A stretch of DNA of 59,570 bases. Source: Terracidiphilus sp. Lineage in GTDB: Bacteria > Acidobacteriota > Terriglobia > Terriglobales > Acidobacteriaceae. The stretch spans positions 1 to 59,570 of the forward strand of contig DASQSP010000212.1 of NCBI GenBank assembly GCA_035642355.1. The letters are read 5' to 3'. The position numbers were made by a program, and so were the translations under genes. Within the stretch, counting starts at the first letter, position 1. Each line of letters starts with the position of its first letter. A model generated the notes under the pieces. It had not been told where the DNA came from. It saw only the letters and a program-made list of their open reading frames with translations, and did no database searches. Positions 3,415 through 54,684 of the stretch are shown here, piece by piece.

Positions 3415-3502
3415 TAGCTGCTAGCTCCTAGCCTCTAGCTTCTAGTCATTCTCTTTTGCTTCCAGCCTTGAGCTAGTAGCTAGAGGTTAGAAGCTAGTGG
3501 CT
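3415..3502. repeat. Inverted heptamer array (CTAGCTY / AGCTAGA)
   Basis: Period-7 arms between atpA and atpG. Confidence 0.8.
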
Positions 3503-3506
3503 GCTT

Positions 3507-5042
<1,536 letters not shown>

Positions 5043-9442: not shown

Positions 9443-9467
9443 CGGCAATTAACCCCCAGGTGATCTT

Positions 9468-9596
9468 AACTGACCACTGACCACTGACGGCTGACGGCTG
9501 AAAGCTGAGGGCTGAAAGCTGAGGGCTGAAAGCTGAGGGCTGAAAGCTGAGGGCTGAAAGCTGAGGGCTGAAAGCTGAGGGCTGAGGGCTGAAAGC
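9468..9596. repeat. Heptamer-based tandem array with six perfect GCTGAAAGCTGAGG copies (9497-9580)
   Basis: Directly visible tandem repeat between bshC and the S10 peptidase. Confidence 0.95.
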
Positions 9597-9608
9597 GAAC
9601 GGCTGTCC

Positions 9609-11225
9609 TCACAGCCACAGCGAGGCATGGCTGCAGCAGGTCGAAGCCGCCGCTTCCGCCGTCAGCCGCTCCGCCAGCTCAAGCCCGTAGCGGCCGAAGT
9701 AGTAGGCCGCGCCGTGCATCCGCTCCTGCAGCACGCCGCCGGGAAAGACCGCGCGGCTGATCGCATCGGCGTGGCGCTTCAGGCTCTCTTCGCGCTGCAT
9801 CTGGAAGTTCGCCGCCAACCGACGCAGCCGGTTCATCTGGTAGCGCATCTTGCGCGCCGCCGTGTCGCCCGAGCGGCCCAGGCCCGCATCGAGCGCGTGC
9901 ATCCACGCGAGCAGCGGCGTCAGCTCTTCGTCCAGCGCGTTGCCTGCCGCGGCCAGCCTGGTCTTGCCCTCTACCGGCATCGCCCGCGCCGCCAGCAACT
10001 GCGCCAGCGAGTCGGCGTTCTCCTGAAACACGCGATCCAATGTCAGCTCATGCGTGCGCAGCAGCTCGCCCATCGCCGGCTCAATCAGCGTGGCGGAGAA
10101 ACGCGGCTCCGCATGAGTCATGCGCCCCAGAATCTTCTCAAACAGCACCGCCGACTGCGCAAAATACGCAATCTCCGCCGGCCCCCCGATAGTCAGTGAC
10201 GTCGAGAACAGAAAGTCCTGAAACACCGGCCGCAGCAGCGCCGCCGGCGAAATCCGCTCCGGCTCCGCTTCCAGAATTCCCACCAGCTCCGCCGTCGAAT
10301 ACCTGTCGCGCCCCGCCAGCCACACCCCCGCGGGCTCGGCGGCGCTGGGCGGCTCGCGCTTCAGCGCCACCCGCGCGCCGGTCTTCGCATCGATCAAGAA
10401 CAGCAGGCTCGAATGCGCCGCCACCGCCACCTGCGCGTGATACCCCGCCGCCGTCAGCGCACTATTGCGCTCATCGAGCGCCGCATGCAGCTCGTCCGCC
10501 CGCTCAAGAGCCGCGCGCAGCACCGGCGCGCCCAGCCGATGCGCCTCGCGCCCCTCGGCATCGAAGATCAGCAACCCCTGCGCGGCAAACACCCTGGCAT
10601 AAAACTCCGCAAACGCCTGCCCAAAGGTGCGCCCCGGCGTGTATGCCGCGGCCAGAGCCTCCATCGCGTCCGAGTAGCCCACCAGCTCCCACGCCTGTTC
10701 GAGCAGCGGCAGAATCGTCTCATCCAGCACCACCCCGCCCACCCGCACCGGCGCCGCCGGAGCCTTGTCGTAGACCAGCCTGGTCAGCTCCCGCCGCGAT
10801 GGAAACACAACATGATCGATCTCCGCAAAATCGTGGTCCTCGGTCGCCAGCCAGAACACCGCCGCATGGGGCCTGCCCGCCTCGCTCGCCTTCCGCGCCC
10901 GCGCCACCGCCGTGGCCGCCTTGAGCGGCACAAACATCGGCCCACCCAACAGCCCCACCTGCTGCCCCGTCACAACGATTCCGGCCCCGCCGCGCAAACT
11001 CGCGAGCGCCGCCCTGCCCGCATCCCCCGCCTGAGGGTTCTGCGCCGCCAGCAAATCGACCAGTTCAGTCCAGTGCGCGGGCAGCGCCGGGCGCGCCTGC
11101 CAGCCCGCATCGAAGGGAACAAATCCGTAGAAGGGCCGCACCCCTGCGGCGGCCGCGCAAAACTCCGCGAAGAGCCGGGTCAGGCCCGGCGCCACAGCTG
11201 CTGGATGACAGTCTGCTATCGACAA
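9609..11225 (-). CDS. bshC: Bacillithiol biosynthesis cysteine-adding enzyme
   Basis: VVTGQQVGLLGGP, FWLATEDHDFAEI, GGPAEIAYFAQ, LQER motifs. Start placed at TTG 11225 because the longer ORF start lies within a MITE. Confidence 0.88.
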   Translation of the reverse strand: MSIADCHPAAVAPGLTRLFAEFCAAAAGVRPFYGFVPFDAGWQARPALPAHWTELVDLLAAQNPQAGDAGRAALASLRGGAGIVVTGQQVGLLGGPMFVPLKAATAVARARKASEAGRPHAAVFWLATEDHDFAEIDHVVFPSRRELTRLVYDKAPAAPVRVGGVVLDETILPLLEQAWELVGYSDAMEALAAAYTPGRTFGQAFAEFYARVFAAQGLLIFDAEGREAHRLGAPVLRAALERADELHAALDERNSALTAAGYHAQVAVAAHSSLLFLIDAKTGARVALKREPPSAAEPAGVWLAGRDRYSTAELVGILEAEPERISPAALLRPVFQDFLFSTSLTIGGPAEIAYFAQSAVLFEKILGRMTHAEPRFSATLIEPAMGELLRTHELTLDRVFQENADSLAQLLAARAMPVEGKTRLAAAGNALDEELTPLLAWMHALDAGLGRSGDTAARKMRYQMNRLRRLAANFQMQREESLKRHADAISRAVFPGGVLQERMHGAAYYFGRYGLELAERLTAEAAASTCCSHASLWL

Positions 11226-11246
11226 CGCGTTCACTTCCAGTTCTAA

Positions 11247-11365
11247 GGAACCTCTGATCAAGTCGATGTTTTGAAAGGGCACGGCTTTAGCCGTGCCGTA
11301 AGTAGCGCAAATTTAACTGGGCTTTAGCCCCTGAGGGAATGCGCTGTGACTTAATCAGACCTTCC
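11247..11365. mobile_element. 119-bp MITE, IS5-like TIRs, carrying family-A REP core
   Basis: GGAACCTCTGATCAAGTC / GACTTAATCAGACCTTCC (15/18 inverted match), flanked by CTAA and TTAA. Internal GGCACGGCTTTAGCCGTGCC...GGGCTTTAGCCCC. Confidence 0.8.
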
Positions 11366-11521
11366 TTAATGGTCAGCTTCGAGCCCCGGTCTTCACATCC
11401 GGTCGCGGCTCGCGGAATTCGGCTCAGTTAAGGATGCCATGCCGGGCCGAATCGATGCACAACGGTGCGCTGGCTTATCCTGAGACTTCACCGATTCCCG
11501 CTCCCAAGGAGAACGCCCTCG

Positions 11522-19858: not shown

Positions 19859-19892
19859 GCGCCTGCGTATGCCCCAACCGTTGGTCGACTGT

Positions 19893-19927
19893 GGGTGCCC
19901 CCGGTCCCTAGCTTTTGGGGACCGGGG
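19893..19927 (+). repeat. Family-B REP upstream of RAYT
   Basis: GGGTGCCCCCGGTCCC...GGGGACCGGGG hairpin. Confidence 0.85.
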
Positions 19928-19983
19928 ATAGAAAACTCACTCTCCACAACTGAAAGGTTTCCCTTGGAGTATCCTCGTAACGC

Positions 19984-20559
19984 ATGAAGGGCAAGCGCAT
20001 CCGTTACCAGCAGACCGGCGAATTCCACTTCCTCACCTTCAGTTGTTATCGACGTCGAGCCTACTTATCGGCACCTGCGGCCATGGAACTTTTCGAAGAC
20101 GCGCTGGAGCGCGTTCGCCTGCGTTATCTTTTTGCGGTGGCCGGCTACGTCGTCATGCCGGAGCATGTGCATCTTCTGGTCAACGAGCCCAGGCGAGCCC
20201 TTTTATCCCGGACCATCCAAGCCCTGAAGTTGTCAGTCTCGATGCGCAGCCGGGAAAGGCCCTTCTGGCAGGCCCACTATTATGACTTCAACATCTCTTC
20301 CCACGAGAAGTTTGTGGAGAAGCTGCGCTACATTCACCGCAACCCTGTGGCGCGCGGTTTAGTGACAAAGCCCGAAGACTGGGCGTGGTCGAGTTACCTC
20401 CACTATCAAACGGGCATGCGCGGAACCATTGAAATCGAATCCGAATGGACAGCCCGCGAGAGAGGCTGGCAACTGCCCGGCTGGATGCGCAATCACGAGC
20501 CCGACTCCCCTAAATCCCCGGTCTCCAAAGGCGAGAGACCGGGGGCACCCTCAACTTGA
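19984..20559 (+). mobile_element. REP-associated tyrosine transposase (RAYT, Y1 HUH)
   Basis: FLTFSCY, VVMPEHVHLL (HUH), FWQ..YYD, YIHRNPV, WAWSSY; flanked by inverted REPs. Confidence 0.93.
20516..20550 (-). repeat. Family-B REP overlapping RAYT 3' end
   Basis: Reverse complement GGGTGCCCCCGGTCTC...GAGACCGGGG. Confidence 0.85.
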
Positions 20560-20607
20560 TGTATTCTTCCTTTTGAGATAGGGGCCACCCGCCAGACACG
20601 GGAAAGC

Positions 20608-21162
20608 ATGGCATTACGCCAAAATGGCATCGAAACATCGGGCAAGGTTAATTCACTGCAGCGCTTTGGCCGATCTGGGCACATGGTCCTCTACACCTTC
20701 ACTGCAAACGGCGTCACCGTTTACGGCAAGGCGACGGTTTCCTCAGCGTCGATGGAAAGCCTTCATGAATCAAGCATCCTCACTGTGAGGTTTCTATCTT
20801 CAAATCCCTCGATTAATCAACCTCTTGTATCCGAGCAGTCCCTATTGCAGATATGGGATATGATTTTAATTCCTATGCCGTTCCTGGGAATTTTAGGCGT
20901 GCTCTTTGTGATTCTTAACAGGCGTCGGCACTTGCTTTCGATGGGGGCGCCAGCCGTCGGCCTTGTAACGGAGTGTAATTTCAACGGACGTTCATTTTTG
21001 GTCAAATATGAGTTTGTTACTGATGCCCAGGTGACTATTAAGGGCGCGGGATGGTCCCAAGACTTACAAAAATCTGGTCAGCGACTTTGGATTCTCTATC
21101 TGTCGAAAAATCCCCGTAGAAACCGCCCTTACCCCTTCTCGGATTACAAATTGGAAGAGTGA
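20608..21162 (+). CDS. AT-rich DUF3592-like membrane protein, possibly 5'-truncated
   Basis: Two G..V...Y.F...Y..NP repeats separated by a TM; bracketed by 22-bp inverted repeats. Confidence 0.6.
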   Translation: MALRQNGIETSGKVNSLQRFGRSGHMVLYTFTANGVTVYGKATVSSASMESLHESSILTVRFLSSNPSINQPLVSEQSLLQIWDMILIPMPFLGILGVLFVILNRRRHLLSMGAPAVGLVTECNFNGRSFLVKYEFVTDAQVTIKGAGWSQDLQKSGQRLWILYLSKNPRRNRPYPFSDYKLEE

Positions 21163-21236
21163 ACAAGGTAGATAGAGAAGCACCGTGGCGGGTGGCTCCG
21201 ATCTCAATAACGTTTCAACCCCGCCGAAGATGCTGT

Positions 21237-21270
21237 GGGTGCCCCCGGTCCCTCGCCGTTGGGGACCGGG
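21237..21270 (+). repeat. Family-B REP
   Basis: GGGTGCCCCCGGTCCCTCGCCGTTGGGGACCGGGG. Confidence 0.85.
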
Positions 21271-21348
21271 GTTTTAAGACTCACTACGGCAGGTGCACGG
21301 GAAAGCAAAAACCAATTCCCTCTCAATCCTCGAAAACAGATTGAACTA

Positions 21349-22279: not shown

Positions 22280-25200
22280 TTACTGGTTAATTACTACTGA
22301 GACCGCCGCCGTTTGAGTAATTGCAGCTCCGCCCGAGGTTGACGTAGATGTAATCGTCACGACCGCACTGCTTGCCGTTCCGGAGCCTGACCCATTGCTG
22401 CTATTGCTACTGCTGCCGCATCCGGTTGCCGAAAGCGCCAGCACCATGCCGAATAGCATCATCAGCGAAGTCCCGAGCACGCCAGCCATTCTCTTCCGTC
22501 GTCTCGGCCAGAACAGCAGCAGGGCCTGCGCTATAGCCAGTCCGCCTGCTATTCCGCCCCATGGATGCACGCTGCGGCGGTTCATCGCCGTCGCGCCCGT
22601 GGCGGTCGCGATGCTCACCTGCACAGAGCCGGTCTGCCCGCCTGTGAGCGACAGACCCGCGGCGGGATTAAAGGTGCAGGTTGCTCCCGTGGGAAGCCCC
22701 GAACACGTAGACGTGATGGTGCCGTTGAAGGTCGGGTTCGTGGCAAAGTTCAATGTCAAGCTGCCCGCCTGCCCGGACGTAACGTTGATGGTCTGCGGCG
22801 TGGCCGTGAGCGAAAACGACGGAGCGAGCGGTTGCACGACCAGGCTCAGCGCAGCCGAGGTGGCCGCCTCGTGGTTCGAGTCGCCGCTGTATGCGGCTGT
22901 GATGGTGTTGGTCCCAGCCGGCAGTCCCGACGCGGCAAACTCCACCGTGTTGCCGCCGCTCAGCGTAACGCTGCCCAATTGCGTTCCTCCGGAAGCGAAA
23001 GTCACACTTCCAGTTGGCGCCGGCGAACCCTTGGGTACACGAACAACCGCCTGCAACTGTGCGGTTCCTCCCTGCGCCACGGTGGCAGAGGCCGCGGTAA
23101 GGGCAACGGAACTGCCTCCCTGATTCACATAGACGGTGGAAACAAATCCCAGCCCGGGGCCTTTCGCCAGCAGATCGGGCAGCCCATCTCCGTTGAAGTC
23201 GCCCACCAGGCTGGCTGCTGCAAACGGACCTGAGGGCGGCTCCAGCACATTGATGGGCTCGCCAAACGTTCCGTTTCCGGCGCCGGGGAGAATGGAGAGA
23301 CCAAAATACTGGGTTGGCCCTGCCAGTGTCTGGAATACGGTGGCAATCAGCTCGGGCAGTCCGTCCCCGTTGAGATCGGCGTACTGCACGTCCGTGACTT
23401 CCGCACCGGGAGCAATCAAGACAGGCTGTCCAAACGAAAAATCACCGTTGCCCTGCAGCAATACGATTCCGACTGTGCTGGGATCCGGAGATTGTCCTGG
23501 AGTGGTAACGTCGCCCAGAGAAAGCAAGGTTAAATCCTGCTTTCCGTCTGCGTTGTAATCGCCAATTTGCATTCCGGTAATTTTCCAGGTGCTCAGCGCA
23601 GTCTTCGCATTTGCGATATCGAAGGTGCCATCGCCATTGCCCTGGAGGACGGTAATCAGGCTGGGCGTCGCACCGATATAAGATGTTGCGAGCCCATCCA
23701 ACACGGCCAGGTCCAGCTTGCCATCGCCATCGAAGTCGCTCAGGAGAACTTGGGCCACCGCGGAGCCATAAGGTGTGAATGTGACGTTGAATCCTCCCTT
23801 GCCATCCCCCAGACCAACAAAATAGCCAGACGTATTTCCGGCATACGACAACACGAAATCCAGATTGCCATCGCCATTGATATCTCCGATATCTACATTG
23901 CCATCCGAGGAGATCGACGCGGGCACGGGAAGGTCGAGCGGAATTGGCGCGCCAAGGGTTCCGTCCGGCTGGCCCAGGGCAACCGAAAGACCATTCGGCG
24001 TGAGCAGCAGGAGATCGAGGTGGCCGTCATTATTGAAATCGGCCAGCCTGGGCACAACGCCCTCCACGCCGGAACTAAACAAAATGGCAGCCGGGATGGC
24101 CGTTGAGAAACTGAATCCACCTTTGCCGTTGCTCAGGCCGAAGTCGATGTCCGGGGCCCCGGTCTGATTGGCATTCGTGTAATCGAGAGTCAGCACATCT
24201 GCCAGCCCATCGCTGTTCACATCGCCAGCCGCGAGCACCACGATGTTGCCTGCCAGATCGGTATTGCTGGGCGAGACCGCCGAAATATTGTTGGGCGCTA
24301 CCGCGCGCGGCGCCGTGAATCTTCCATTTCCCAATCCGTGAACCAGTAAGAAGGCGCCGTAGGCGCCGTCTGCCACGGGGACGTCGAGATTGCCATCGCC
24401 ATCGAAATCCGCGGGAGCCGGCTCCTGCGGGCTGAATGCCAGGCCTCCATTGAAGCTGTTGATGGCGAACTGCGCGTCAGGAGTTGCACTGAAGCCGCCG
24501 GTGCCGTTGCCGGGGTATACCGCCATCGAACCAGGGTTCGATATCAGGAGATCGGGTATGCCGTCGTTATTGAAATCGCCTACCTGCAACATTTGTGCGA
24601 ATTGTTGTAGTGGCAAAGTATTGCTCAGCACCGTGCTTGGCGCGCCAAACGTTCCGTCGCCAACGCCCAGCGCCAATTGGGCGGTTCCGTCGCCGGGGAG
24701 ATAAACCAGGTCCGGATGCCCATCGCCGTTCATGTCCGCAACCTGAAACGCGGGACCTTCCCCGCCGGAACCCGCGTTGAAGCTGAATGCGGATGCCGCC
24801 GTCTGCATCGGGCCAAAGGTGCCGTTTGCGCTGCCCAGGGCGACAGAGATGACCATCTGAGAGGTATCAGTATCGAAATATTCGAGCAGAGTATCAGGAT
24901 TCCCGTCCCCATTTACATCGCTCATCAAGACAAACTGACCAGGAACGAAGAAATTGTATTGCAGGAAATCCGGAACCGAGGTGTCGACCTCCGGGGAAGG
25001 AGTCAGGTTTCCGTGGCCGTCATTGAGAAACGTCTGTTCCGCAATCACGCTGGGAAAGCCTCCTGCAATTTGCACCGTCACCACATCGGGCTTGCCGTCG
25101 TGATTCACATCCGCAACCGCAATGCCGCCGCCTCCGCTACCGAACAAAGGATTGAAGCTTGCTCCCGCCGTGGACGAAACCGGCGTAAGGGTAACGTTGC

Positions 25201-26110: not shown

Positions 26111-29100
26111 ATGGCTCGCCAAATCTCATTCAACCGGTGTAAAGCCGCTCTCTTGCCCGTTCTCTGCCTGTTGGCGCCTTTCTGCCTGGTACCCACCGTC
26201 AGTGCCGCGGCACAAACCCAGCCATCCAGCACCGCACCTGCGCCGCTTATCACGCGGCCGATCGATGACACCCGTCTGGTAGAGCTCAAGGGCAACGTCC
26301 ATCCCGCCGTGCGCACTGCCACCGACCTTGGCCCCGCAAGCGACACCCTTGTGCTGCGCCGCATGATCCTGCTGCTCAAGCGGAGCCCCGCGCAGCAGGC
26401 CGCGCTCGACAAGCTGGTAGACAGCCAGAAGAACCCGAACTCGCCGCAATATCACAAGTGGCTTACGCCGGCCCAATTCGGCGCCCAGTTCGGCGTCACG
26501 CCGCAAGACATGTCAACCATCACGGGCTGGCTGCAATCGCACGGATTCACTGTGGAATCCGTGGCCAACGGCAAAAACGCGATCACCTTCTCCGGCACCA
26601 ACGCACAACTGGAATCGGCTTTTCATACCACCATACATCAGTACCGGAGCGCACCGTCCAAAGCGGTGCAAACGAATACGGCGCCCAGCGCAGTCGTCCC
26701 CCCCGTCAACTTGCTGCACTACGCCAACGCCACAAACCCCAGCATTCCCGAGGCTCTGGCTCCGGCGATCGCAGGCATCGTATCGCTCAACAATTTTCCC
26801 ATCGCGACGCAGAGCGTGGTGGCCGGCCTGGCCAGGCCACAGGCAGGCAGCAACAAGTGGCAGTTGACGCAAACCGTCAATCCCGCGCCGCAGTTCAACA
26901 CTTCCATCGGCACCGCGACTTATCACGCCGTCTCTCCCAGCGACTTTGCCACTATTTACAACGTGCAGCCGTTGTGGGACGCGGGCATTGACGGCACCGG
27001 GCAAACCATCGCCATTGTGAACCGCAGCAATATCAACCCGGCCGACGTAGACTCGTTCCGCAGCTTCTTCGGCCTCCCCGCCAAGCGCCTGAATGTCATC
27101 GTCAACGGGCCCGACCCGGGCCTGGTTCAGGGAGATGAAGGCGAAGCCGATGTCGACGTGGAATGGTCTGGCGCGGTCGCGAAAAACGCTACGGTGGATC
27201 TGGTCGTCTCCGCTTCGACGGCAGCCACCGACGGCATCGATCTTTCCGCGCTGTACATTGTCGACAACAATCTCGCCCCGATCATGAGCACCAGCTTCGG
27301 CGGCTGTGAGATGTTCCTGGGCAACGGTGGCAATCAGTTCTACAACGGGCTATGGGAGCAGGCCGCTTCCCAGGGCATCACGGCTCTCGTTTCCTCCGGC
27401 GATTCGGGTTCCGCCGCCTGCGACCAGAACAATCCGAACGGAGCAGCGCAAGACGGTTTTACCGTAAGCGGACTAGCTTCTACCCCATTCGATACCGCGG
27501 TTGGCGGCACCGACCTCTACGGCACGGAAATCAACCCTAACGCATACTGGAGCACCACCAACAATCCCACCACGCAGCAGTCCGCCCTGGGGTATATACA
27601 GGAACTGCCCTGGAATAACGGTTGCGGCAATCCGCAGCTTCTGGCCATCCTGCAAAATTTCGACGGCGTCACGGCCACTACCGGGGAAGCTCTATGCAGT
27701 TCCGGCCAGGAAAATTTTCTCGGCGTGGTAGGCGGCAGCGGCGGTCCCAGCAATTGCACCGTTTCCGACCCTCAAACCGCAACCTGCATCAGCGGCTACC
27801 CCAAACCCACCTTCCAAACCGGTGTGCCCGGCATTCCCAACGACTCCGCCCGCGATCTCCCGGACGTTTCGCTCTTCGCCGGCAATGGGCTCTGGGGAAG
27901 CTTCTATGTCTTTTGCGAGTCGGACGGAACACCTGACGGCCAGTGCGGCTTCAGCTCCGGCGACGCGGAGTACCTCGCTGTGGGAGGCACCTCAGTCTCC
28001 TCTCCCTCGTTCGCCGGCATCATAGCGCTGGTGGAGCAGAAGACCAATTCCATCCAGGGCAATGTGAACTACGACCTGTACAAGCTGGCCGCCGCGCAGT
28101 TCACGGCGGGCACCTCGTGCGACTCTTCCACGGTGTCCGACGGCAGTTCCTGCGTCTTTTATGACGTCGCGTCCGACTCCCAATTCAACCTTCCGGGCAG
28201 CAACGCGGTGCCCTGCCTCAGCGGCTATGCCGACTGCACGCCGACGAATCCGAACGATCTGTTCAGTGTTCTTCCCGGCTGGAATTCCACTCCCGGCTAT
28301 GACACCGCCACCGGTCTGGGTACCCTCAATGCCGCCAACCTGGTGAATACATGGAGCACGGCATCGGCAAACCTGACGGCAACAACAACCACGCTGGCGT
28401 TGAACTCCGCCAGCATTGCCTATGGATCGACAGGCGGCACGATCTCCGTCGCCGACAGCAACGGCAGCGGTTCCGGCGGCGCCATTCCGGATGGGGATGT
28501 CTCCCTGACCAATGCGCCCGGCAGCACGCCTACTTTGGGTATAGGCCCATTCACGCTTGACAGCGAAGGCTCGGCTACGTTTGCGACCTACACTCTCGCG
28601 CCTGGAACCTATTCGATCGTTGGGCACTATGCGGGTGACGCCACGTTTGCCGCGAGCAACTCGGCCGCGACCAGCCTGGTTATCACGCAGGCAGCCACGA
28701 CCGCGACCACAATCGCCAGCCGCACGGCCTTATCGACCGGCGAGAGCGTTACGCTGAGCACGACAATCAAAGACATTTCCGCCGGCCTTAACCCTACCGG
28801 CCTGGTCACCTACACCGATACGGCCAACGGCGTAACTCTGGGAAGCCAACTGGTGCTGCCCGCTACAGACAGCAATGGCAACTCGATCGGAACCGCAAGC
28901 ATCAACATTGCCGGCAAGCGCCTGAGCCAGGGCAACAACAGCATCGCGGCCACATATTCGGGAGATGCCAATTACGTCGCAGCCACCGCGGCGCCCGTGT
29001 CCATCTCCTATACCGGGCCGTTCTCGCTCACTTCGGCGAGTACGTCGGTCTCCATCACCTCCGGCAGTTCCGCCACCGCGGCTCTTACGATTGCGGCCAA

Positions 29101-29821
29101 TGGCGCTCCACTGCCTACCGCCGTTTCATTCTCCTGTCCCGCGGCTCCGGCAGGAATCACCTGCTCATTCAGCCCGGCCACCATTGCGGCAGGGGCTAGT
29201 TCCGGACAGTCCACTCTCACCATCAACGGAGTCTTTCCCGCCACTTCCACCAGCAATGTGCGCCGCGCCGCGGTCGCGCACAATACCCATGCCGGCCTCT
29301 TGACGGCAACCGGCGGCATCGCTCTGTCGGCCATGTGCCTCATGTTCGTGGCTCCGGGCAAGCGCCGCCGCTATGGGTGCCTGCTCCTCTGCATCACGGC
29401 GGCCATCTCCTTGGTTCCGCTCGGTTGTAACGGCAGCAGCGCGCACACACTTACCGCCACGTCAACCACGGTCGCGGCTACCCCGGCAAGCGGCGTGCAA
29501 GGCTCCACCTTCACATTCATGTCCACGGTCAGCGGTTCGAGCGGAACCGGGACGCCTACGGGGACGGTAACGTTCTCCGACGGCAGCTCGACGCTCGGCA
29601 TGGGCACGGTATCCAACGGCACGGCGAGCTTCAGCTCCACCACGCTGGCGCTCGGATCGCATTCCGTTGTTGCCACCTACAGTGGAGACACGAATTTCGC
29701 CCCCTCCAACTCTGGCACTCCAGCAACCGCCGACGTCCAGTACTCGGCCAACCTCACAGTGGCCGCGACGGATTCGCTCGGCAACACAACCAGCATTCAA
29801 ATTCCCGTCACCGTCCAGTAA
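26111..29821 (+). CDS. S53 (sedolisin-like) peptidase with pro-domain and Ig-like repeats
   Basis: YHKWLTPAQF pro-domain, EADVDVEW, SGDSG, GGTSVSSP, GYDTATGLG; three Big_3-type repeats. Confidence 0.93.
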   Translation: MARQISFNRCKAALLPVLCLLAPFCLVPTVSAAAQTQPSSTAPAPLITRPIDDTRLVELKGNVHPAVRTATDLGPASDTLVLRRMILLLKRSPAQQAALDKLVDSQKNPNSPQYHKWLTPAQFGAQFGVTPQDMSTITGWLQSHGFTVESVANGKNAITFSGTNAQLESAFHTTIHQYRSAPSKAVQTNTAPSAVVPPVNLLHYANATNPSIPEALAPAIAGIVSLNNFPIATQSVVAGLARPQAGSNKWQLTQTVNPAPQFNTSIGTATYHAVSPSDFATIYNVQPLWDAGIDGTGQTIAIVNRSNINPADVDSFRSFFGLPAKRLNVIVNGPDPGLVQGDEGEADVDVEWSGAVAKNATVDLVVSASTAATDGIDLSALYIVDNNLAPIMSTSFGGCEMFLGNGGNQFYNGLWEQAASQGITALVSSGDSGSAACDQNNPNGAAQDGFTVSGLASTPFDTAVGGTDLYGTEINPNAYWSTTNNPTTQQSALGYIQELPWNNGCGNPQLLAILQNFDGVTATTGEALCSSGQENFLGVVGGSGGPSNCTVSDPQTATCISGYPKPTFQTGVPGIPNDSARDLPDVSLFAGNGLWGSFYVFCESDGTPDGQCGFSSGDAEYLAVGGTSVSSPSFAGIIALVEQKTNSIQGNVNYDLYKLAAAQFTAGTSCDSSTVSDGSSCVFYDVASDSQFNLPGSNAVPCLSGYADCTPTNPNDLFSVLPGWNSTPGYDTATGLGTLNAANLVNTWSTASANLTATTTTLALNSASIAYGSTGGTISVADSNGSGSGGAIPDGDVSLTNAPGSTPTLGIGPFTLDSEGSATFATYTLAPGTYSIVGHYAGDATFAASNSAATSLVITQAATTATTIASRTALSTGESVTLSTTIKDISAGLNPTGLVTYTDTANGVTLGSQLVLPATDSNGNSIGTASINIAGKRLSQGNNSIAATYSGDANYVAATAAPVSISYTGPFSLTSASTSVSITSGSSATAALTIAANGAPLPTAVSFSCPAAPAGITCSFSPATIAAGASSGQSTLTINGVFPATSTSNVRRAAVAHNTHAGLLTATGGIALSAMCLMFVAPGKRRRYGCLLLCITAAISLVPLGCNGSSAHTLTATSTTVAATPASGVQGSTFTFMSTVSGSSGTGTPTGTVTFSDGSSTLGMGTVSNGTASFSSTTLALGSHSVVATYSGDTNFAPSNSGTPATADVQYSANLTVAATDSLGNTTSIQIPVTVQ

Positions 29822-30814: not shown

Positions 30815-31594
30815 TCACCCTCGGGATGACATGGCTTGAGTTGACGAAGCCAACGGCGCGGTGGGCTGGCTGGCTAGTTCGGCGACGGCGGTACGGAGGC
30901 GGGCGGTCAGCTCTTCGGTCTGGCGGAGGGTCATGCCCTTGGTTTGGATGGGTTCGCCGACTGCGAGGGTTACCGGGCAGGGATGGAAGTGGTGGGTGTG
31001 GATGGGCAGCAGGTCATAGACGCCGCTGAGGCCGATGGGGACGAGCGGGACCTGGGCGCGGATGGCAAGGAAGGCTGCGCCGGCCAGAAATTCGCGGAGT
31101 TCGCCGGTGTTGGTGCGGCCGCCCTCGGGGAAGACGAACAGCGGCATGCCGGCGCGGAGGGCGCGGGCGCCGGCGCCGAGGCTGGAGAGCGAGGCGTGGG
31201 GATTGTCGGTGTCAATGGGGAGCTGGCCGGAGCGGTTGAGATGCCAGCCGATGAAGGGCAGTCCCCAAAGCTGCTTGCGGGCCAGGATGCGGAACTGGAA
31301 CGGGAGGGTCGCAAAAATGACCGGCGTATCCATATAGGACGTGTGGTTGGAGGCGTAGACGGCGACGGGGTGTTGGCGGAGGTTGGCCGCGCCGCGCACG
31401 GTGAGGCGCGCACCGGAGAAGAAGACACAGCCGCGGGCCCATACGTGGGCGATGGCGTGCTGCACGCGTCCGGGCTTGTCAAACAAGGAAGACAGCAGGG
31501 AGAGCGTGCCGCAGAGGGCGGTCCAGAGCAGGAAGAACGGTGCCCGGAAGACGTTGGAGCGGCAGCGGGCGAGGAACGGGAGCGGCCGGGTCAT
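30815..31594 (-). CDS. plsC: 1-acyl-sn-glycerol-3-phosphate acyltransferase
   Basis: NHTSYMD and FPEGGR motifs. Confidence 0.92.
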   Translation of the reverse strand: MTRPLPFLARCRSNVFRAPFFLLWTALCGTLSLLSSLFDKPGRVQHAIAHVWARGCVFFSGARLTVRGAANLRQHPVAVYASNHTSYMDTPVIFATLPFQFRILARKQLWGLPFIGWHLNRSGQLPIDTDNPHASLSSLGAGARALRAGMPLFVFPEGGRTNTGELREFLAGAAFLAIRAQVPLVPIGLSGVYDLLPIHTHHFHPCPVTLAVGEPIQTKGMTLRQTEELTARLRTAVAELASQPTAPLASSTQAMSSRG

Positions 31595-33171
31595 GGTTTG
31601 TCCTCGGCGAGTAAAAACGCGCGGGCTTCTCCAACGAGGTAGACGGAGCCGGAGATGACGATGACCGCAGGGGTTCTCTCAGGGGCTAAAGCCCCTTTTT
31701 TATGGTGCGGGCTTGCGGCACGACTGAAGTCGTGCCCTGACGCGGGGGTCTGCGGCTCTTGTCCGGCTTGGGTGGCGCGTGCCATTACGAGGGCTTCTGC
31801 GACGGAGGCGGCGGCTTGCGCGGGTGTGCCGGTGGAGGCGGCGGCGGCGAGCAGCTCGGCCATTGGCGTGGCGCGAGGACTGGTGATGGGCGCGAAGACG
31901 ACGCGATCGAAGAGTGGGAAGAGTATCTGCGCCATTTCTGCGAGGGGCTTGTCGCGCAGGCAACTGAAGACCAGGGTGAGGGGTGTGCCTTCGGGCACGA
32001 GCTGACGCAGGCCGGCGCGGAGGGCCCATGCGCCGGCGGGATTGTGTGCGACGTCCAAAATCCACTGCGTGGAGGCTAACCCTTTGGAGGAGTGTGTTGT
32101 GATGCGTTCCAGGCGCGCGGGCCATTGCGTGTTGCGGACGCCTGCGGAGATGGAGGCGGGCGTGATGGGCAGATTGTGGCGCTCGGCGAGCTCGACGGCG
32201 GCAGCGATGGCGAGGGCGATGTTGCGGTGCTGGTGCGCGCCGTGGAGGGGTGAGTCGATTTCGATCTCTTCACCGAGAGCCGTGATGGTGTAGGGCGCCG
32301 GGGCTAAAGCCCCTTCATTCATTGGCGCCGTTGCGTACGGGCTGAAGCCCGTACCCTTCGCCGGAGTTGAAGCCCCTTCTTGTTTTTTTGCGAAGCTTTC
32401 GGCACGACTGAAGTCGTGCCCTGACACGGACGGCATGTACGGAACGGCGCTGAGGGCGCGGACGTTGAGCGCGAGGGCGATTTCGCCGATGGCGTGATTG
32501 GCCTCGGGGTGCTGGGGCAGGGTGATGAGGGTGCCGTTGGGGCGAAGGATTCCGGCTTTCTCGCGGGCGATGGCGGCGATGGTGGAGCCGAGCCATTCGG
32601 TGTGGTCGAGGGAGATGTCGGTGATGACGGAGAGCAGCGGATCGACGATGTTGGTGGCGTCGAGGCGGCCGCCCATGCCGACTTCGAGGACGGCGAAGTC
32701 GACTGGACCTGCTCCCGACGCGCCCTCGGCGAAGTGGAGGAAGGCCAGGGCGGTGAGGCATTCAAAGAAGCTGGGCAACTGGGCGAGCTTCCGATCCATG
32801 ACGAGTTGCTGGCCTGTGTCGTGGACGCGGAAGTAGAGCGCGGCGAATTGCTCGTCGGAGATTTCGACGCCGCTGACGCGGATGCGCTCATTGGGGCGGG
32901 TAAGGTGCGGCGAGGTGTAGAGGCCGGTGCGCAGCCCCGCCGCGGCGGACAGGCCCGACTCATTCAGAATGGAGGCGAGCGTGGCGGCAGTGGAGCCTTT
33001 GCCGTTGGTTCCGGCGATGAGGACCGCGGGGAATTTGCGATGCGGGTTGCCGAGGGCTTTGAGCAGGACGCCGATCTCGTCGAGAGAGAACTTGCGCCGC
33101 GGCTGGCCTGGCTGGGTGTGCAGCTCAGGGGTCATGGCGGCGAGCTGGTCGATGGCGGCGGCGTAGGACAT
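31591..33171 (-). CDS. folC: Folylpolyglutamate/dihydrofolate synthase with two in-frame REP insertions
   Basis: AGTNGKGS, LYTSPHL, EVGMGGRLDATN, DVAHNP, SGSVYLVGE. Confidence 0.95.
   Translation of the reverse strand: MSYAAAIDQLAAMTPELHTQPGQPRRKFSLDEIGVLLKALGNPHRKFPAVLIAGTNGKGSTAATLASILNESGLSAAAGLRTGLYTSPHLTRPNERIRVSGVEISDEQFAALYFRVHDTGQQLVMDRKLAQLPSFFECLTALAFLHFAEGASGAGPVDFAVLEVGMGGRLDATNIVDPLLSVITDISLDHTEWLGSTIAAIAREKAGILRPNGTLITLPQHPEANHAIGEIALALNVRALSAVPYMPSVSGHDFSRAESFAKKQEGASTPAKGTGFSPYATAPMNEGALAPAPYTITALGEEIEIDSPLHGAHQHRNIALAIAAAVELAERHNLPITPASISAGVRNTQWPARLERITTHSSKGLASTQWILDVAHNPAGAWALRAGLRQLVPEGTPLTLVFSCLRDKPLAEMAQILFPLFDRVVFAPITSPRATPMAELLAAAASTGTPAQAAASVAEALVMARATQAGQEPQTPASGHDFSRAASPHHKKGALAPERTPAVIVISGSVYLVGEARAFLLAEDKP
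31678..31740 (-). repeat. Family-A REP core in frame in folC
   Basis: TCAGGGCACGACTTCAGTCGTGCC...GGGGCTTTAGCCCCTGAG encodes SGHDFSRAASPHHKKGALAPE. Confidence 0.92.
32299..32424 (-). repeat. Two tandem family-A REP cores in frame in folC
   Basis: Encodes SGHDFSRAESFAKKQEGASTPAKGTGFSPYATAPMNEGALAP. Confidence 0.92.
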
Positions 33172-33256: not shown

Positions 33257-33290
33257 GACTGATCACTGACGACTGATCACTGACAACTGT
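33257..33290. repeat. Heptamer array (ACTGATC/ACTGACR)
   Basis: Period-7 tandem directly after the sod stop. Confidence 0.75.
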
Positions 33291-41065: not shown

Positions 41066-41317
41066 CGAGTTCACAGTTCTTAGTTCGCAGTTCACAGTGC
41101 GATCAGTTGCGAGCTACGAACTGTGAACCAAGGAAGCTCTGATTCAGCCGATCAAAGACTCCGCAGGGGCTAAAGCCCCTCTCATTTTGACGACTCATAC
41201 GGCACGACTGAAGTCGTGCCCTGTTACAAAGCGGCCTTGTTCAGAGGTTCTCTACGAACTGTGAACCAAGAACTGTGAACTAAGAACTACGAACTGTGAA
41301 TTAACAACTGAGAACTG
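41066..41317. repeat. Inverted heptamer array (AGTTCAC / GAACTGT) interrupted by MITE
   Basis: Period-7 arms between gnd and zwf. Confidence 0.85.
41132..41251. mobile_element. 120-bp MITE, IS5-like TIRs, carrying family-A REP core (reverse orientation)
   Basis: GGAAGCTCTGA ... TCAGAGGTTCT ends resemble the 11247 element. Core CAGGGGCTAAAGCCCC...GGCACGACTGAAGTCGTGCC. Confidence 0.72.
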
Positions 41318-54500: not shown

Positions 54501-54531
54501 TCGACTCCTCGGGTTGAAAGCTGCGATCTCG

Positions 54532-54652
54532 GGAAGTAGGTCAGTTTGAAACCGTTTTGAAAGGGCATGACTTCAGTCGTGCCGTATGCGTCGCAAAATG
54601 AGATGAGGCTTTAGCCACTGAGGGATGGGTTGTCACAAACTGACCTACTACC
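54532..54652. mobile_element. 121-bp MITE with 17-bp TIRs and 8-bp target duplication, carrying family-A REP core
   Basis: GGAAGTAGGTCAGTTTG / CAAACTGACCTACTACC (16/17), flanked by CGATCTCG and CTATCTCG. Confidence 0.88.
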
Positions 54653-54684
54653 CTATCTCGGGATACATCGACTCTGGTTTCGCT

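What the first reader, a model, noticed from the sequence alone, without database searches (positions are those of the whole stretch)
31678..32424. folC carries three family-A REP cores in frame at two sites
Seen: the peptide SGHDFSRA...GALAP occurs twice in FolC (about 42 aa from a tandem doublet and about 21 aa from a single core). It is encoded by the same palindromes found intergenically. Both sites use the same orientation and frame, and catalytic motifs remain intact. Inference: repeated independent insertions into surface loops of a normally essential enzyme, with a 63-bp unit that preserves the frame.
Basis: partly seen in the sequence, partly recalled or inferred. Interest (0 to 1): 0.76.

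Follow-up and report, generated by a model that had tools for sequence, protein, structure and literature searches.

The report
Mobile hairpins translated inside folate enzyme
Three copies of a small hairpin-forming repeat, scattered about 200 times through this soil acidobacterium's genome, sit in frame in two predicted surface loops of its only folate-synthesis enzyme FolC, and the same two loops gain or lose such repeats again and again in relatives, likely as tolerated passengers; this kind of event is already known from other bacteria.

Summary
folC (33171-31591, minus strand, 526 aa, the genome's only copy) holds three cores of a dispersed double-hairpin repeat in frame: two in tandem (residues 250-291), one near the C-terminus (478-498). 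The genome has 203 copies; by my filter only 4 lie inside genes in frame: these 3 and a reversed one in rlmN. In the genus the repeat flanks one clade of REP-associated tyrosine transposase (RAYT) genes (28-29 of 30 loci); that clade was not found in this genome. Both sites are low-confidence loops in the predicted structure; motifs are intact, core dN/dS about 0.17. Repeat peptides occupy the same two loops in 17 of 116 related FolC clusters, in several subtypes, not as one clade (AU p 6e-5). RecN, UvrC, RimO and TrmD of relatives show the same habit. One correction: there is no fixed 63-bp frame-keeping unit; frame and orientation are best explained by selection. In-frame intragenic REPs are published for other phyla, and this scan has noted them before in other Acidobacteria genes. 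New member of a known kind.

The parts
31591..33171 (-). folC, bifunctional folylpolyglutamate/dihydrofolate synthase, 526 aa; its stop overlaps the start codon of the next gene
   Evidence: TIGR01499 329.7 bits, cut-off 162.65; only folC in the genome; model matches solved FolC/FPGS structures
32401..32427 (-). Site 1, core 1: 7-nt leader plus 20-nt hairpin 1, read as VSGHDFSRA
   Evidence: leader and hairpin are the commonest type beside the RAYT clade
32363..32376 (-). Site 1, core 1: decayed hairpin 2 (reads GASTP)
   Evidence: sequence
32335..32354 (-). Site 1, core 2: variant hairpin 1, read as GTGFSPY; 66 nt after core 1
   Evidence: 19 exact copies of this variant in the genome
32300..32313 (-). 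Site 1, core 2: intact hairpin 2, read as GALAP
31717..31743 (-). Site 2 core: leader plus hairpin 1, read as ASGHDFSRA
   Evidence: (family D9)
31678..31695 (-). Site 2: hairpin 2, read as GALAPE; on the opposite strand it is a terminator-like hairpin with a T run
30815..31594 (-). Downstream acyltransferase gene (PlsC-like), start overlapping the folC stop; context, no repeat inside
   Evidence: PF01553 92 bits
19984..20559 (+). A RAYT gene in the window, flanked by a different palindrome family (family B); not the cognate transposase of the folC cores
   Evidence: NF047646 105 bits, cut-off 80; flanks

Best explanation
The three segments are copies of a RAYT-associated double-hairpin REP that likely entered two length-variable, predicted surface loops of FolC and are likely kept as tolerated passengers. 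Steps: (1) a Y1/HUH transposase of the clade that this repeat flanks would copy cores into new sites (association shown, catalysis inferred); (2) nearly all insertions into coding DNA would be removed by selection, leaving 4 interior in-frame cores among about 240 copies (count shown, cause inferred); (3) survivors sit in the few loops that tolerate extra residues, in a frame without stops and mostly in the orientation that puts no hairpin-plus-U terminator into the mRNA (sequence asymmetry shown, causal role inferred); (4) an enlarged loop is a larger harmless target, so further cores pile up, decay or are deleted, which gives tandem arrays and a patchy presence among close relatives (pattern shown, process inferred).
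For: RAYT link: a family hairpin lies within 300 nt of 29 of 30 best loci of one RAYT clade and on both sides, inverted, in 21 of 30 (28 and 20 without two loose matches); NF047646 above cut-off. Rarity in genes: 237 copies at E<0.01, 4 interior and in frame, against roughly 2,170 genes. Loops: pLDDT block means 40-54 over residues 251-290 and 49-71 over 471-500, mean 88 overall; the loop segments span 14-92 and 15-129 residues in 117 FolC clusters. Enzyme maintained: dN/dS 0.11-0.17 against three orthologues with both loops left out, single copy, folP- and folK-type genes present. Turnover: at least 8 and 12 changes of state on a 117-row tree; site-2 carriers rejected as one clade, p-AU 5.8e-5 on a 40-row subset; sisters a few percent apart differ. 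Generality: 18 RecN and 12 UvrC relatives carry arrays at one and two fixed loops; this genome's UvrC and TsaD hold family-B peptides in those loops. Orientation: 70 of 173 copies give a hairpin plus 5 or more T when read in reverse, 0 of 173 forward; the reversed rlmN copy has only 3 T. Inserts have GC3 0.55-0.57 against 0.84 for the core.
Against: No near-identical empty allele was found: the nearest relative is about 81% identical, so insertion ends and any target motif are unknown. The cognate RAYT was not found in this genome (96.6% complete, 258 contigs). Counts of change cannot tell gain from loss. Inserts in relatives were called from protein motifs, with DNA seen for only three loci, and my patterns were written after seeing the insert-biased list. 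Three of four interior cores in one gene is more clustering than even tolerance would give, so some target preference or selection is not excluded. A 10-nt stretch of the site-1 spacer also occurs in the nearest relative's loop, which could mean an older element lost there.
Confidence: 0.74

Rival explanations
1. Insertion is biased toward these sites: the RAYT, or recombination with other copies, would prefer DNA that already holds a hairpin remnant, so old footprints in folC, recN and uvrC are refilled again and again, beyond what loop tolerance explains.
For: Tandem arrays of up to five cores at one loop; different subtypes at the same FolC loop among relatives, and hairpin-2-only remnants; 6 of 17 carriers have both sites; MITE-like units inserted into the loop of other cores.
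Against: Unrelated palindrome families use the same loops, which points to protein tolerance and not to one enzyme's target. The offset of the core inside the loop varies from 9 to 70 residues. The both-sites excess is not significant once kinship is respected (5 independent pairs, median p 0.5).
Confidence: 0.14
2. The inserts were selected for a function: the hairpins would tune mRNA stability or ribosome speed between FolC domains, or the peptides would add an interaction surface.
For: Perfect hairpin 1 in all three cores; one frame and orientation dominate; carriers are mostly DNA-repair and RNA-modification enzymes, a bias also reported in PMC3733652 section 15.
Against: 99 of 116 related FolC clusters have neither insert by my patterns; sisters differ; subtype, number and offset vary; one hairpin 2 is already decayed; the loops are predicted disordered. 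Perfect hairpins also fit recent arrival.
Confidence: 0.07
3. One ancestral insertion per site, followed by many losses and by gene conversion from other copies.
For: Counts of change are undirected; a 10-nt match to the site-1 spacer in the nearest relative; one subclade shares a site-2 GTGFSPY insert.
Against: At least three hairpin subtypes, two reading frames at site 1 and different offsets; carriers are scattered among non-carriers with short loops.
Confidence: 0.04
4. The gene is a relic or an assembly artefact.
For: No expression data; fragmented assembly; contigs break inside the repeated core.
Against: Open frame, only copy, invariant residues present, dN/dS 0.17; every contig piece is colinear with orthologues; other FolC proteins from other sources carry like inserts.
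Confidence: 0.01

Closest known systems
Intragenic GTAG/CGTC REPs (Di Nocera et al. 2013, PMC3733652; sections 15 and 16 read, other passages by search, 4 supplements searched)
   Same: In-frame singles, dimers and groups encoding 20-30 aa or more; two insertions in one gene (O. terrae uvrA); same site in related genes (Xanthomonas recB); bias to DNA-repair and RNA enzymes; linked to Y1 transposases.
   Different: No GTAG or CGTC tag (leaders end in GAAAG, AACAG, GTCAG, GAAGG); two unlike hairpins head to tail; folC not mentioned in the main text or the held supplements; the same loops are refilled across many lineages and by several families.
TIRYT/TIRtrons of Acidobacteria, with 'double palindromic TIRs' (PMC3733652 section 16; figure 9 not held)
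   Same: Tyrosine transposase gene bracketed by inverted, self-complementary repeats that also form a dispersed family (said of Koribacter ORF 1552).
   Different: Whether this is the same sequence family could not be checked without the figure; the sections read describe no in-frame copies for it.
Rickettsia palindromic elements (RPE; from passages of review PMC10969869 and of PMC3733652; the original papers were not held)
   Same: Palindromic repeats fused in frame into unrelated housekeeping proteins with a recurring peptide.
   Different: RPEs are about 150 bp and nearly half are in genes, in an obligate intracellular lineage; here about 65-70 bp, about 2% interior in frame, in a soil lineage, with a candidate transposase.
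REPINs with RAYTs (Bertels and Rainey 2011, PMC3116915; passages read)
   Same: Non-autonomous hairpin elements dependent on a RAYT.
   Different: A REPIN is two inverted copies of one REP; the folC doublet is a direct tandem and each unit has two unlike hairpins.

Membership tests
RAYT-associated REP | Short imperfect palindrome in many dispersed, mostly extragenic copies | tested here: met
   203 copies by pattern, 237 by profile, 4 interior in frame; 146 of 151 genus genomes
RAYT-associated REP | Copies flank a Y1/HUH tyrosine transposase gene in inverted orientation | tested here: met
   (21 of 30 both sides by script, 20 conservatively); NF047646 112-113 bits, cut-off 80
RAYT-associated REP | Cognate RAYT present in the same genome | tested here: inconclusive
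   Not found in G000; found in 86 of 151 genomes searched; the assembly is fragmented and loss is common for these genes
RAYT-associated REP | The RAYT binds and cleaves the element | not testable with these tools
   needs biochemistry
GTAG/CGTC-tagged REP superfamilies | GTAG or CGTC tetranucleotide at the foot of the hairpin | tested here: not met
   the five bases before hairpin 1 are GAAAG 85, AACAG 52, GTCAG 26, GAAGG 26 of 203
REPIN | Two inverted copies of one REP forming a long hairpin | tested here: not met
   folC cores are in direct orientation
MITE | Terminal inverted repeats bracketing the unit | tested here: not met
   no such arms around the folC cores (the one score of 11.5 is a match of folC coding DNA to the second core); 48 of 193 genome copies do have arms
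Rickettsia palindromic element | About 150-bp RPE sequence, frequent in-frame fusion | tested here: not met
   length about 65-70 bp and 4 of 237 interior in frame; sequence homology to RPE not tested; it works like an RPE
FolC/FPGS | Family score, fold, P-loop and other invariant residues | tested here: met
FolC/FPGS | Enzyme activity and expression | not testable with these tools
   no RNA holder listed

The most novel reading that the evidence does not exclude
In this acidobacterial genus a fixed set of loops in housekeeping enzymes (two in FolC, one in RecN, two in UvrC, one each in RimO, TrmD and TrmH) work as reloadable cassette slots: RAYTs preferentially insert, stack and remove hairpin units there, so that peptide modules cycle in and out of essential proteins between near-sister lineages and tune their expression or interactions.
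Probability: 0.12. Interest if true: 0.68.

Novelty: new member of a known kind. Interest (0 to 1): 0.36.

Why it matters
It extends protein-coding palindromes to an abundant soil lineage and ties them to a named transposase clade. Because the same loops are filled repeatedly by several element subtypes and families, the genus is a natural insertion scan: it marks permissive loops in FolC, RecN, UvrC, RimO, TrmD and others, and makes an open question testable, namely whether the bias of intragenic REPs toward DNA-repair and RNA-modifying enzymes comes from loop tolerance, targeting or selection. As a single case it is ordinary.

Tried and rejected
Fixed 63-bp unit: rejected. The window's own RAYT as the mobiliser: it and three of the other four Y1 hits in the genome have family-B flanks; one family-A copy lies about 1 kb from one of them; identity to the cognate clade is only 25-32%. 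Second folC or relic: none found. Known RNA family: only two weak, unrelated Rfam hits at E 0.3-0.7. Internal promoter: none by consensus scan. Use of intergenic copies as terminators: no orientation bias after stop codons, 25 forward and 22 reversed. Expression: no RNA holder listed, no evidence either way; small-share runs held other organisms' folC and repeat copies. A metagenome scan for hairpin 2 next to the last FolC strand gave 1 locus, too few for a test of selection on the insert. A census of family B in coding DNA failed, pattern too strict, 0 matches. Linkage of the two sites: Fisher p 1e-4 ignores kinship; independent pairs were too few. Of 70 folC loci checked at DNA level 3 held family hairpins, one of them found by the pattern itself; the two draws from the genome collection may overlap, so 70 is not a count of genomes. 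Literature: seven searches; the peptides GHDFSRA and GTGFSPY and the two DNA motifs had no occurrence in the 20 listed of 53 papers (the listed hits were for 'galape' in unrelated papers). Ogata et al. 2002 was not held. Figure 9 of PMC3733652 and subscription journals could not be seen and may describe this repeat.

Full report
Observation. The gene on the minus strand at 33171-31591 encodes a 526-residue FolC (TIGR01499, 329.7 bits against a cut-off of 162.65). It is the only folC found in the genome, and its stop overlaps the start of an acyltransferase gene. Site 1 is two cores in direct tandem, 66 nt apart, the first with a decayed second hairpin; site 2 is one complete core. Both fold better than shuffles (z about -3). 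Contigs of a public run that may be the source of this DNA reproduce both sites without a difference and break only inside the repeated core.

The element. Each unit is a short leader, a 20-nt hairpin with a TTCA or TTTA loop, an A-rich spacer and a second 14-nt hairpin. The genome holds 203 copies by pattern and 237 by profile at E<0.01; the hairpin occurs in 146 of 151 genomes of the genus, with no match for the reversed control. The nearest named homologues of this FolC are labelled Terracidiphilus, so the lineage is Acidobacteriaceae. The element has no GTAG or CGTC tag. Among the 30 Y1-transposase loci, four of one clade had the element beside the gene, three of them on both sides. A search with one of these proteins found the clade in 86 of 151 genomes and not in this one. 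Of its 30 best loci, 29 had a family hairpin within 300 nt and 21 had an inverted pair; two matches are loose, so 28 and 20 are the safe counts. The commonest leader there is the one on folC cores 1 and 3. Two of these proteins score above the cut-off for REP-associated tyrosine transposase. The RAYT inside the window belongs to another clade and has other flanks.

Insertion, not ancestry. None of 29 orthologue loci from the genus had the motifs (two are cut before site 2 and one is frameshifted), nor does the nearest relative at about 81% identity. The inserts have GC3 0.55-0.57 against 0.84 in the core, and the core is under purifying selection (dN/dS 0.167, 0.111, 0.163 against three orthologues, both loops and the last residues left out). 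The predicted model (mean pLDDT 88.1) is confident except over the two inserts, where block means fall to 40-54 and 49-71; it matches solved FolC/FPGS structures at E 1e-33 to 1e-27. Site 1 lies between two strands before the interdomain region; site 2 lies between the last-but-one helix and the final strand, at the strand end opposite to the conserved GS motif (inferred). Genes of the folP and folK families are present.

Recurrence. To avoid bias I ranked homologues by residues 1-240 only. Of the 119 other clusters in the top 120, 3 were dropped as incomplete; of the 116 left, 10 carry a family peptide at site 1, 13 at site 2, 17 at either and 6 at both. The patterns were written after seeing the insert-biased list and act on protein only; DNA was seen for three loci. 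Subtype, frame and offset vary (GHDFSRA, GTGFSPY, GRGFSP-like, GYGLQPV; offsets 9-70 residues). The fewest changes of state on a tree built without the loops are 8 and 12; on a 40-row subset holding all 18 carriers the site-2 carriers are rejected as one clade (p-AU 5.8e-5), and several sister pairs a few percent apart differ. These counts cannot tell gain from loss. Peptides of a second palindrome family occur at site 2 in 4 clusters and at a third loop in 7 (assignment to family B by peptide likeness). The broader genus draw shows the habit is patchy: 0 of 29.

FolC is not alone. A search with the site-1 insert gave 63 proteins of 86 candidates at E up to 10. I mapped 47 of them: 18 RecN all at residues 390-399, 12 UvrC at two loops (3 further excinuclease-like proteins aligned poorly), 4 RimO, 4 TrmD, 3 QueA, 2 TrmH, 1 TsaD, mostly at one loop each and often as arrays (names checked for eight proteins). 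This search can only find the forward frame. In this genome those genes lack the family, but UvrC and TsaD hold family-B peptides in the matching loops. Only 4 cores are interior and in frame here: the 3 in folC and a reversed one in rlmN; my coding-score filter may miss others, and a few copies lie at possible N-termini, such as miaA.

Frame and orientation. The hairpin-to-hairpin distance is a multiple of three in only 53 of 175 copies, and the forward frame used in folC is open across 67 of 175; two reverse frames are open in 89 and 91. So the element is not built to keep the frame, and stop codons alone do not favour the forward sense. A terminator may: read in reverse, 70 of 173 copies give a hairpin with five or more T, forward none, and the reversed rlmN copy has three. 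At RAYT genes the forward element precedes the start and the reversed one follows the end. This is an inference; intergenic copies show no orientation bias after stop codons.

Mechanism. Most likely RAYT-driven insertion, filtered by selection, into the few loops that tolerate extra residues; an enlarged loop then collects more units (0.74). Targeting of old footprints (0.14), a selected function (0.07), single origin with losses (0.04) and artefact (0.01) are the rivals. Shown: sequence, copy number, RAYT association, absence in relatives, patchiness. Predicted: loop position. Inferred: transposition by the RAYT, neutrality, translation.

Comparison. Di Nocera et al. 2013 (PMC3733652; sections 15 and 16 read) describe in-frame REPs of 20-30 aa, double insertions in one gene, a bias to repair and RNA enzymes, and Acidobacterial tyrosine transposases with palindromic terminal repeats. 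Quentin et al. 2018 (PMC6006769, author name recalled; passages) note frame-keeping REP insertions in the transposase genes themselves. Rickettsia elements are taken from a review (passages). REPINs (passages) are inverted doublets, which this is not. I found no paper on this repeat family or on folC inserts in seven searches of the held library. Earlier notes of this scan report like cases in eight other Acidobacteria loci, unchecked by me; none on folC.

Verdict. Real and well supported; a new member of a known kind. The recurrent filling of the same loops is the part worth keeping. Interest 0.36.

Noticed in passing
G000:C95:459-1631 (minus strand): rlmN (TIGR00048, 324 bits) carries one core in frame in the reverse orientation, the only other interior copy found in the genome.
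   Followed up: partly
G000:C249:5615-5705: A core lies in frame just before the miaA domain with no ATG between; it may be a translated N-terminal extension or a leader.
   Followed up: partly
G000:C253 (uvrC) and G000:C211 (tsaD): Peptides of a second palindrome family (family B) sit in the loops where relatives carry the folC family.
   Followed up: partly
window 11225-11375 and 54520-54665; G000 C250, C194, C135, C23: 48 of 193 cores lie inside units of about 150 nt with terminal inverted repeats of several types (control 3 of 300); some of these MITE-like units sit in the loop of another core's hairpin, giving nested elements.
   Followed up: partly
window 19889-21285: RAYT gene (19984-20559) with family-B palindromes at 19889-19941, about 20500-20590 and 21233-21285, and an A+T-richer stretch between the last two.
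   Followed up: partly
L139-L168: In this RAYT clade the upstream element's second hairpin ends a few bases before the start codon and the downstream element overlaps or abuts the gene end; several RAYT genes have an internal stop.
   Followed up: no
FolC homologues P0061, P0140, P0142, P0168, P0169, P0174: A third FolC loop (after the RLE motif, residues about 356-370 of the query) is also expanded, up to 77 residues, with family-B-like peptides in 7 of 116 clusters.
   Followed up: partly
window 32325-32334 against L008: Ten bases of the site-1 spacer also occur in the loop of the nearest relative's folC, which has no hairpins; chance or the remnant of an older element.
   Followed up: no
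window 9456-9605, 712-767, 3458-3513, 41100-41316, 33262-33290: Arrays of 7-nt and 14-nt tandem units between genes.
   Followed up: no
window 26111-29821: A 1,236-aa secreted-looking protease-like ORF (label from memory of its motifs, not from a call), preceded by a gene with seven 41-nt repeats at 23167-25118.
   Followed up: no
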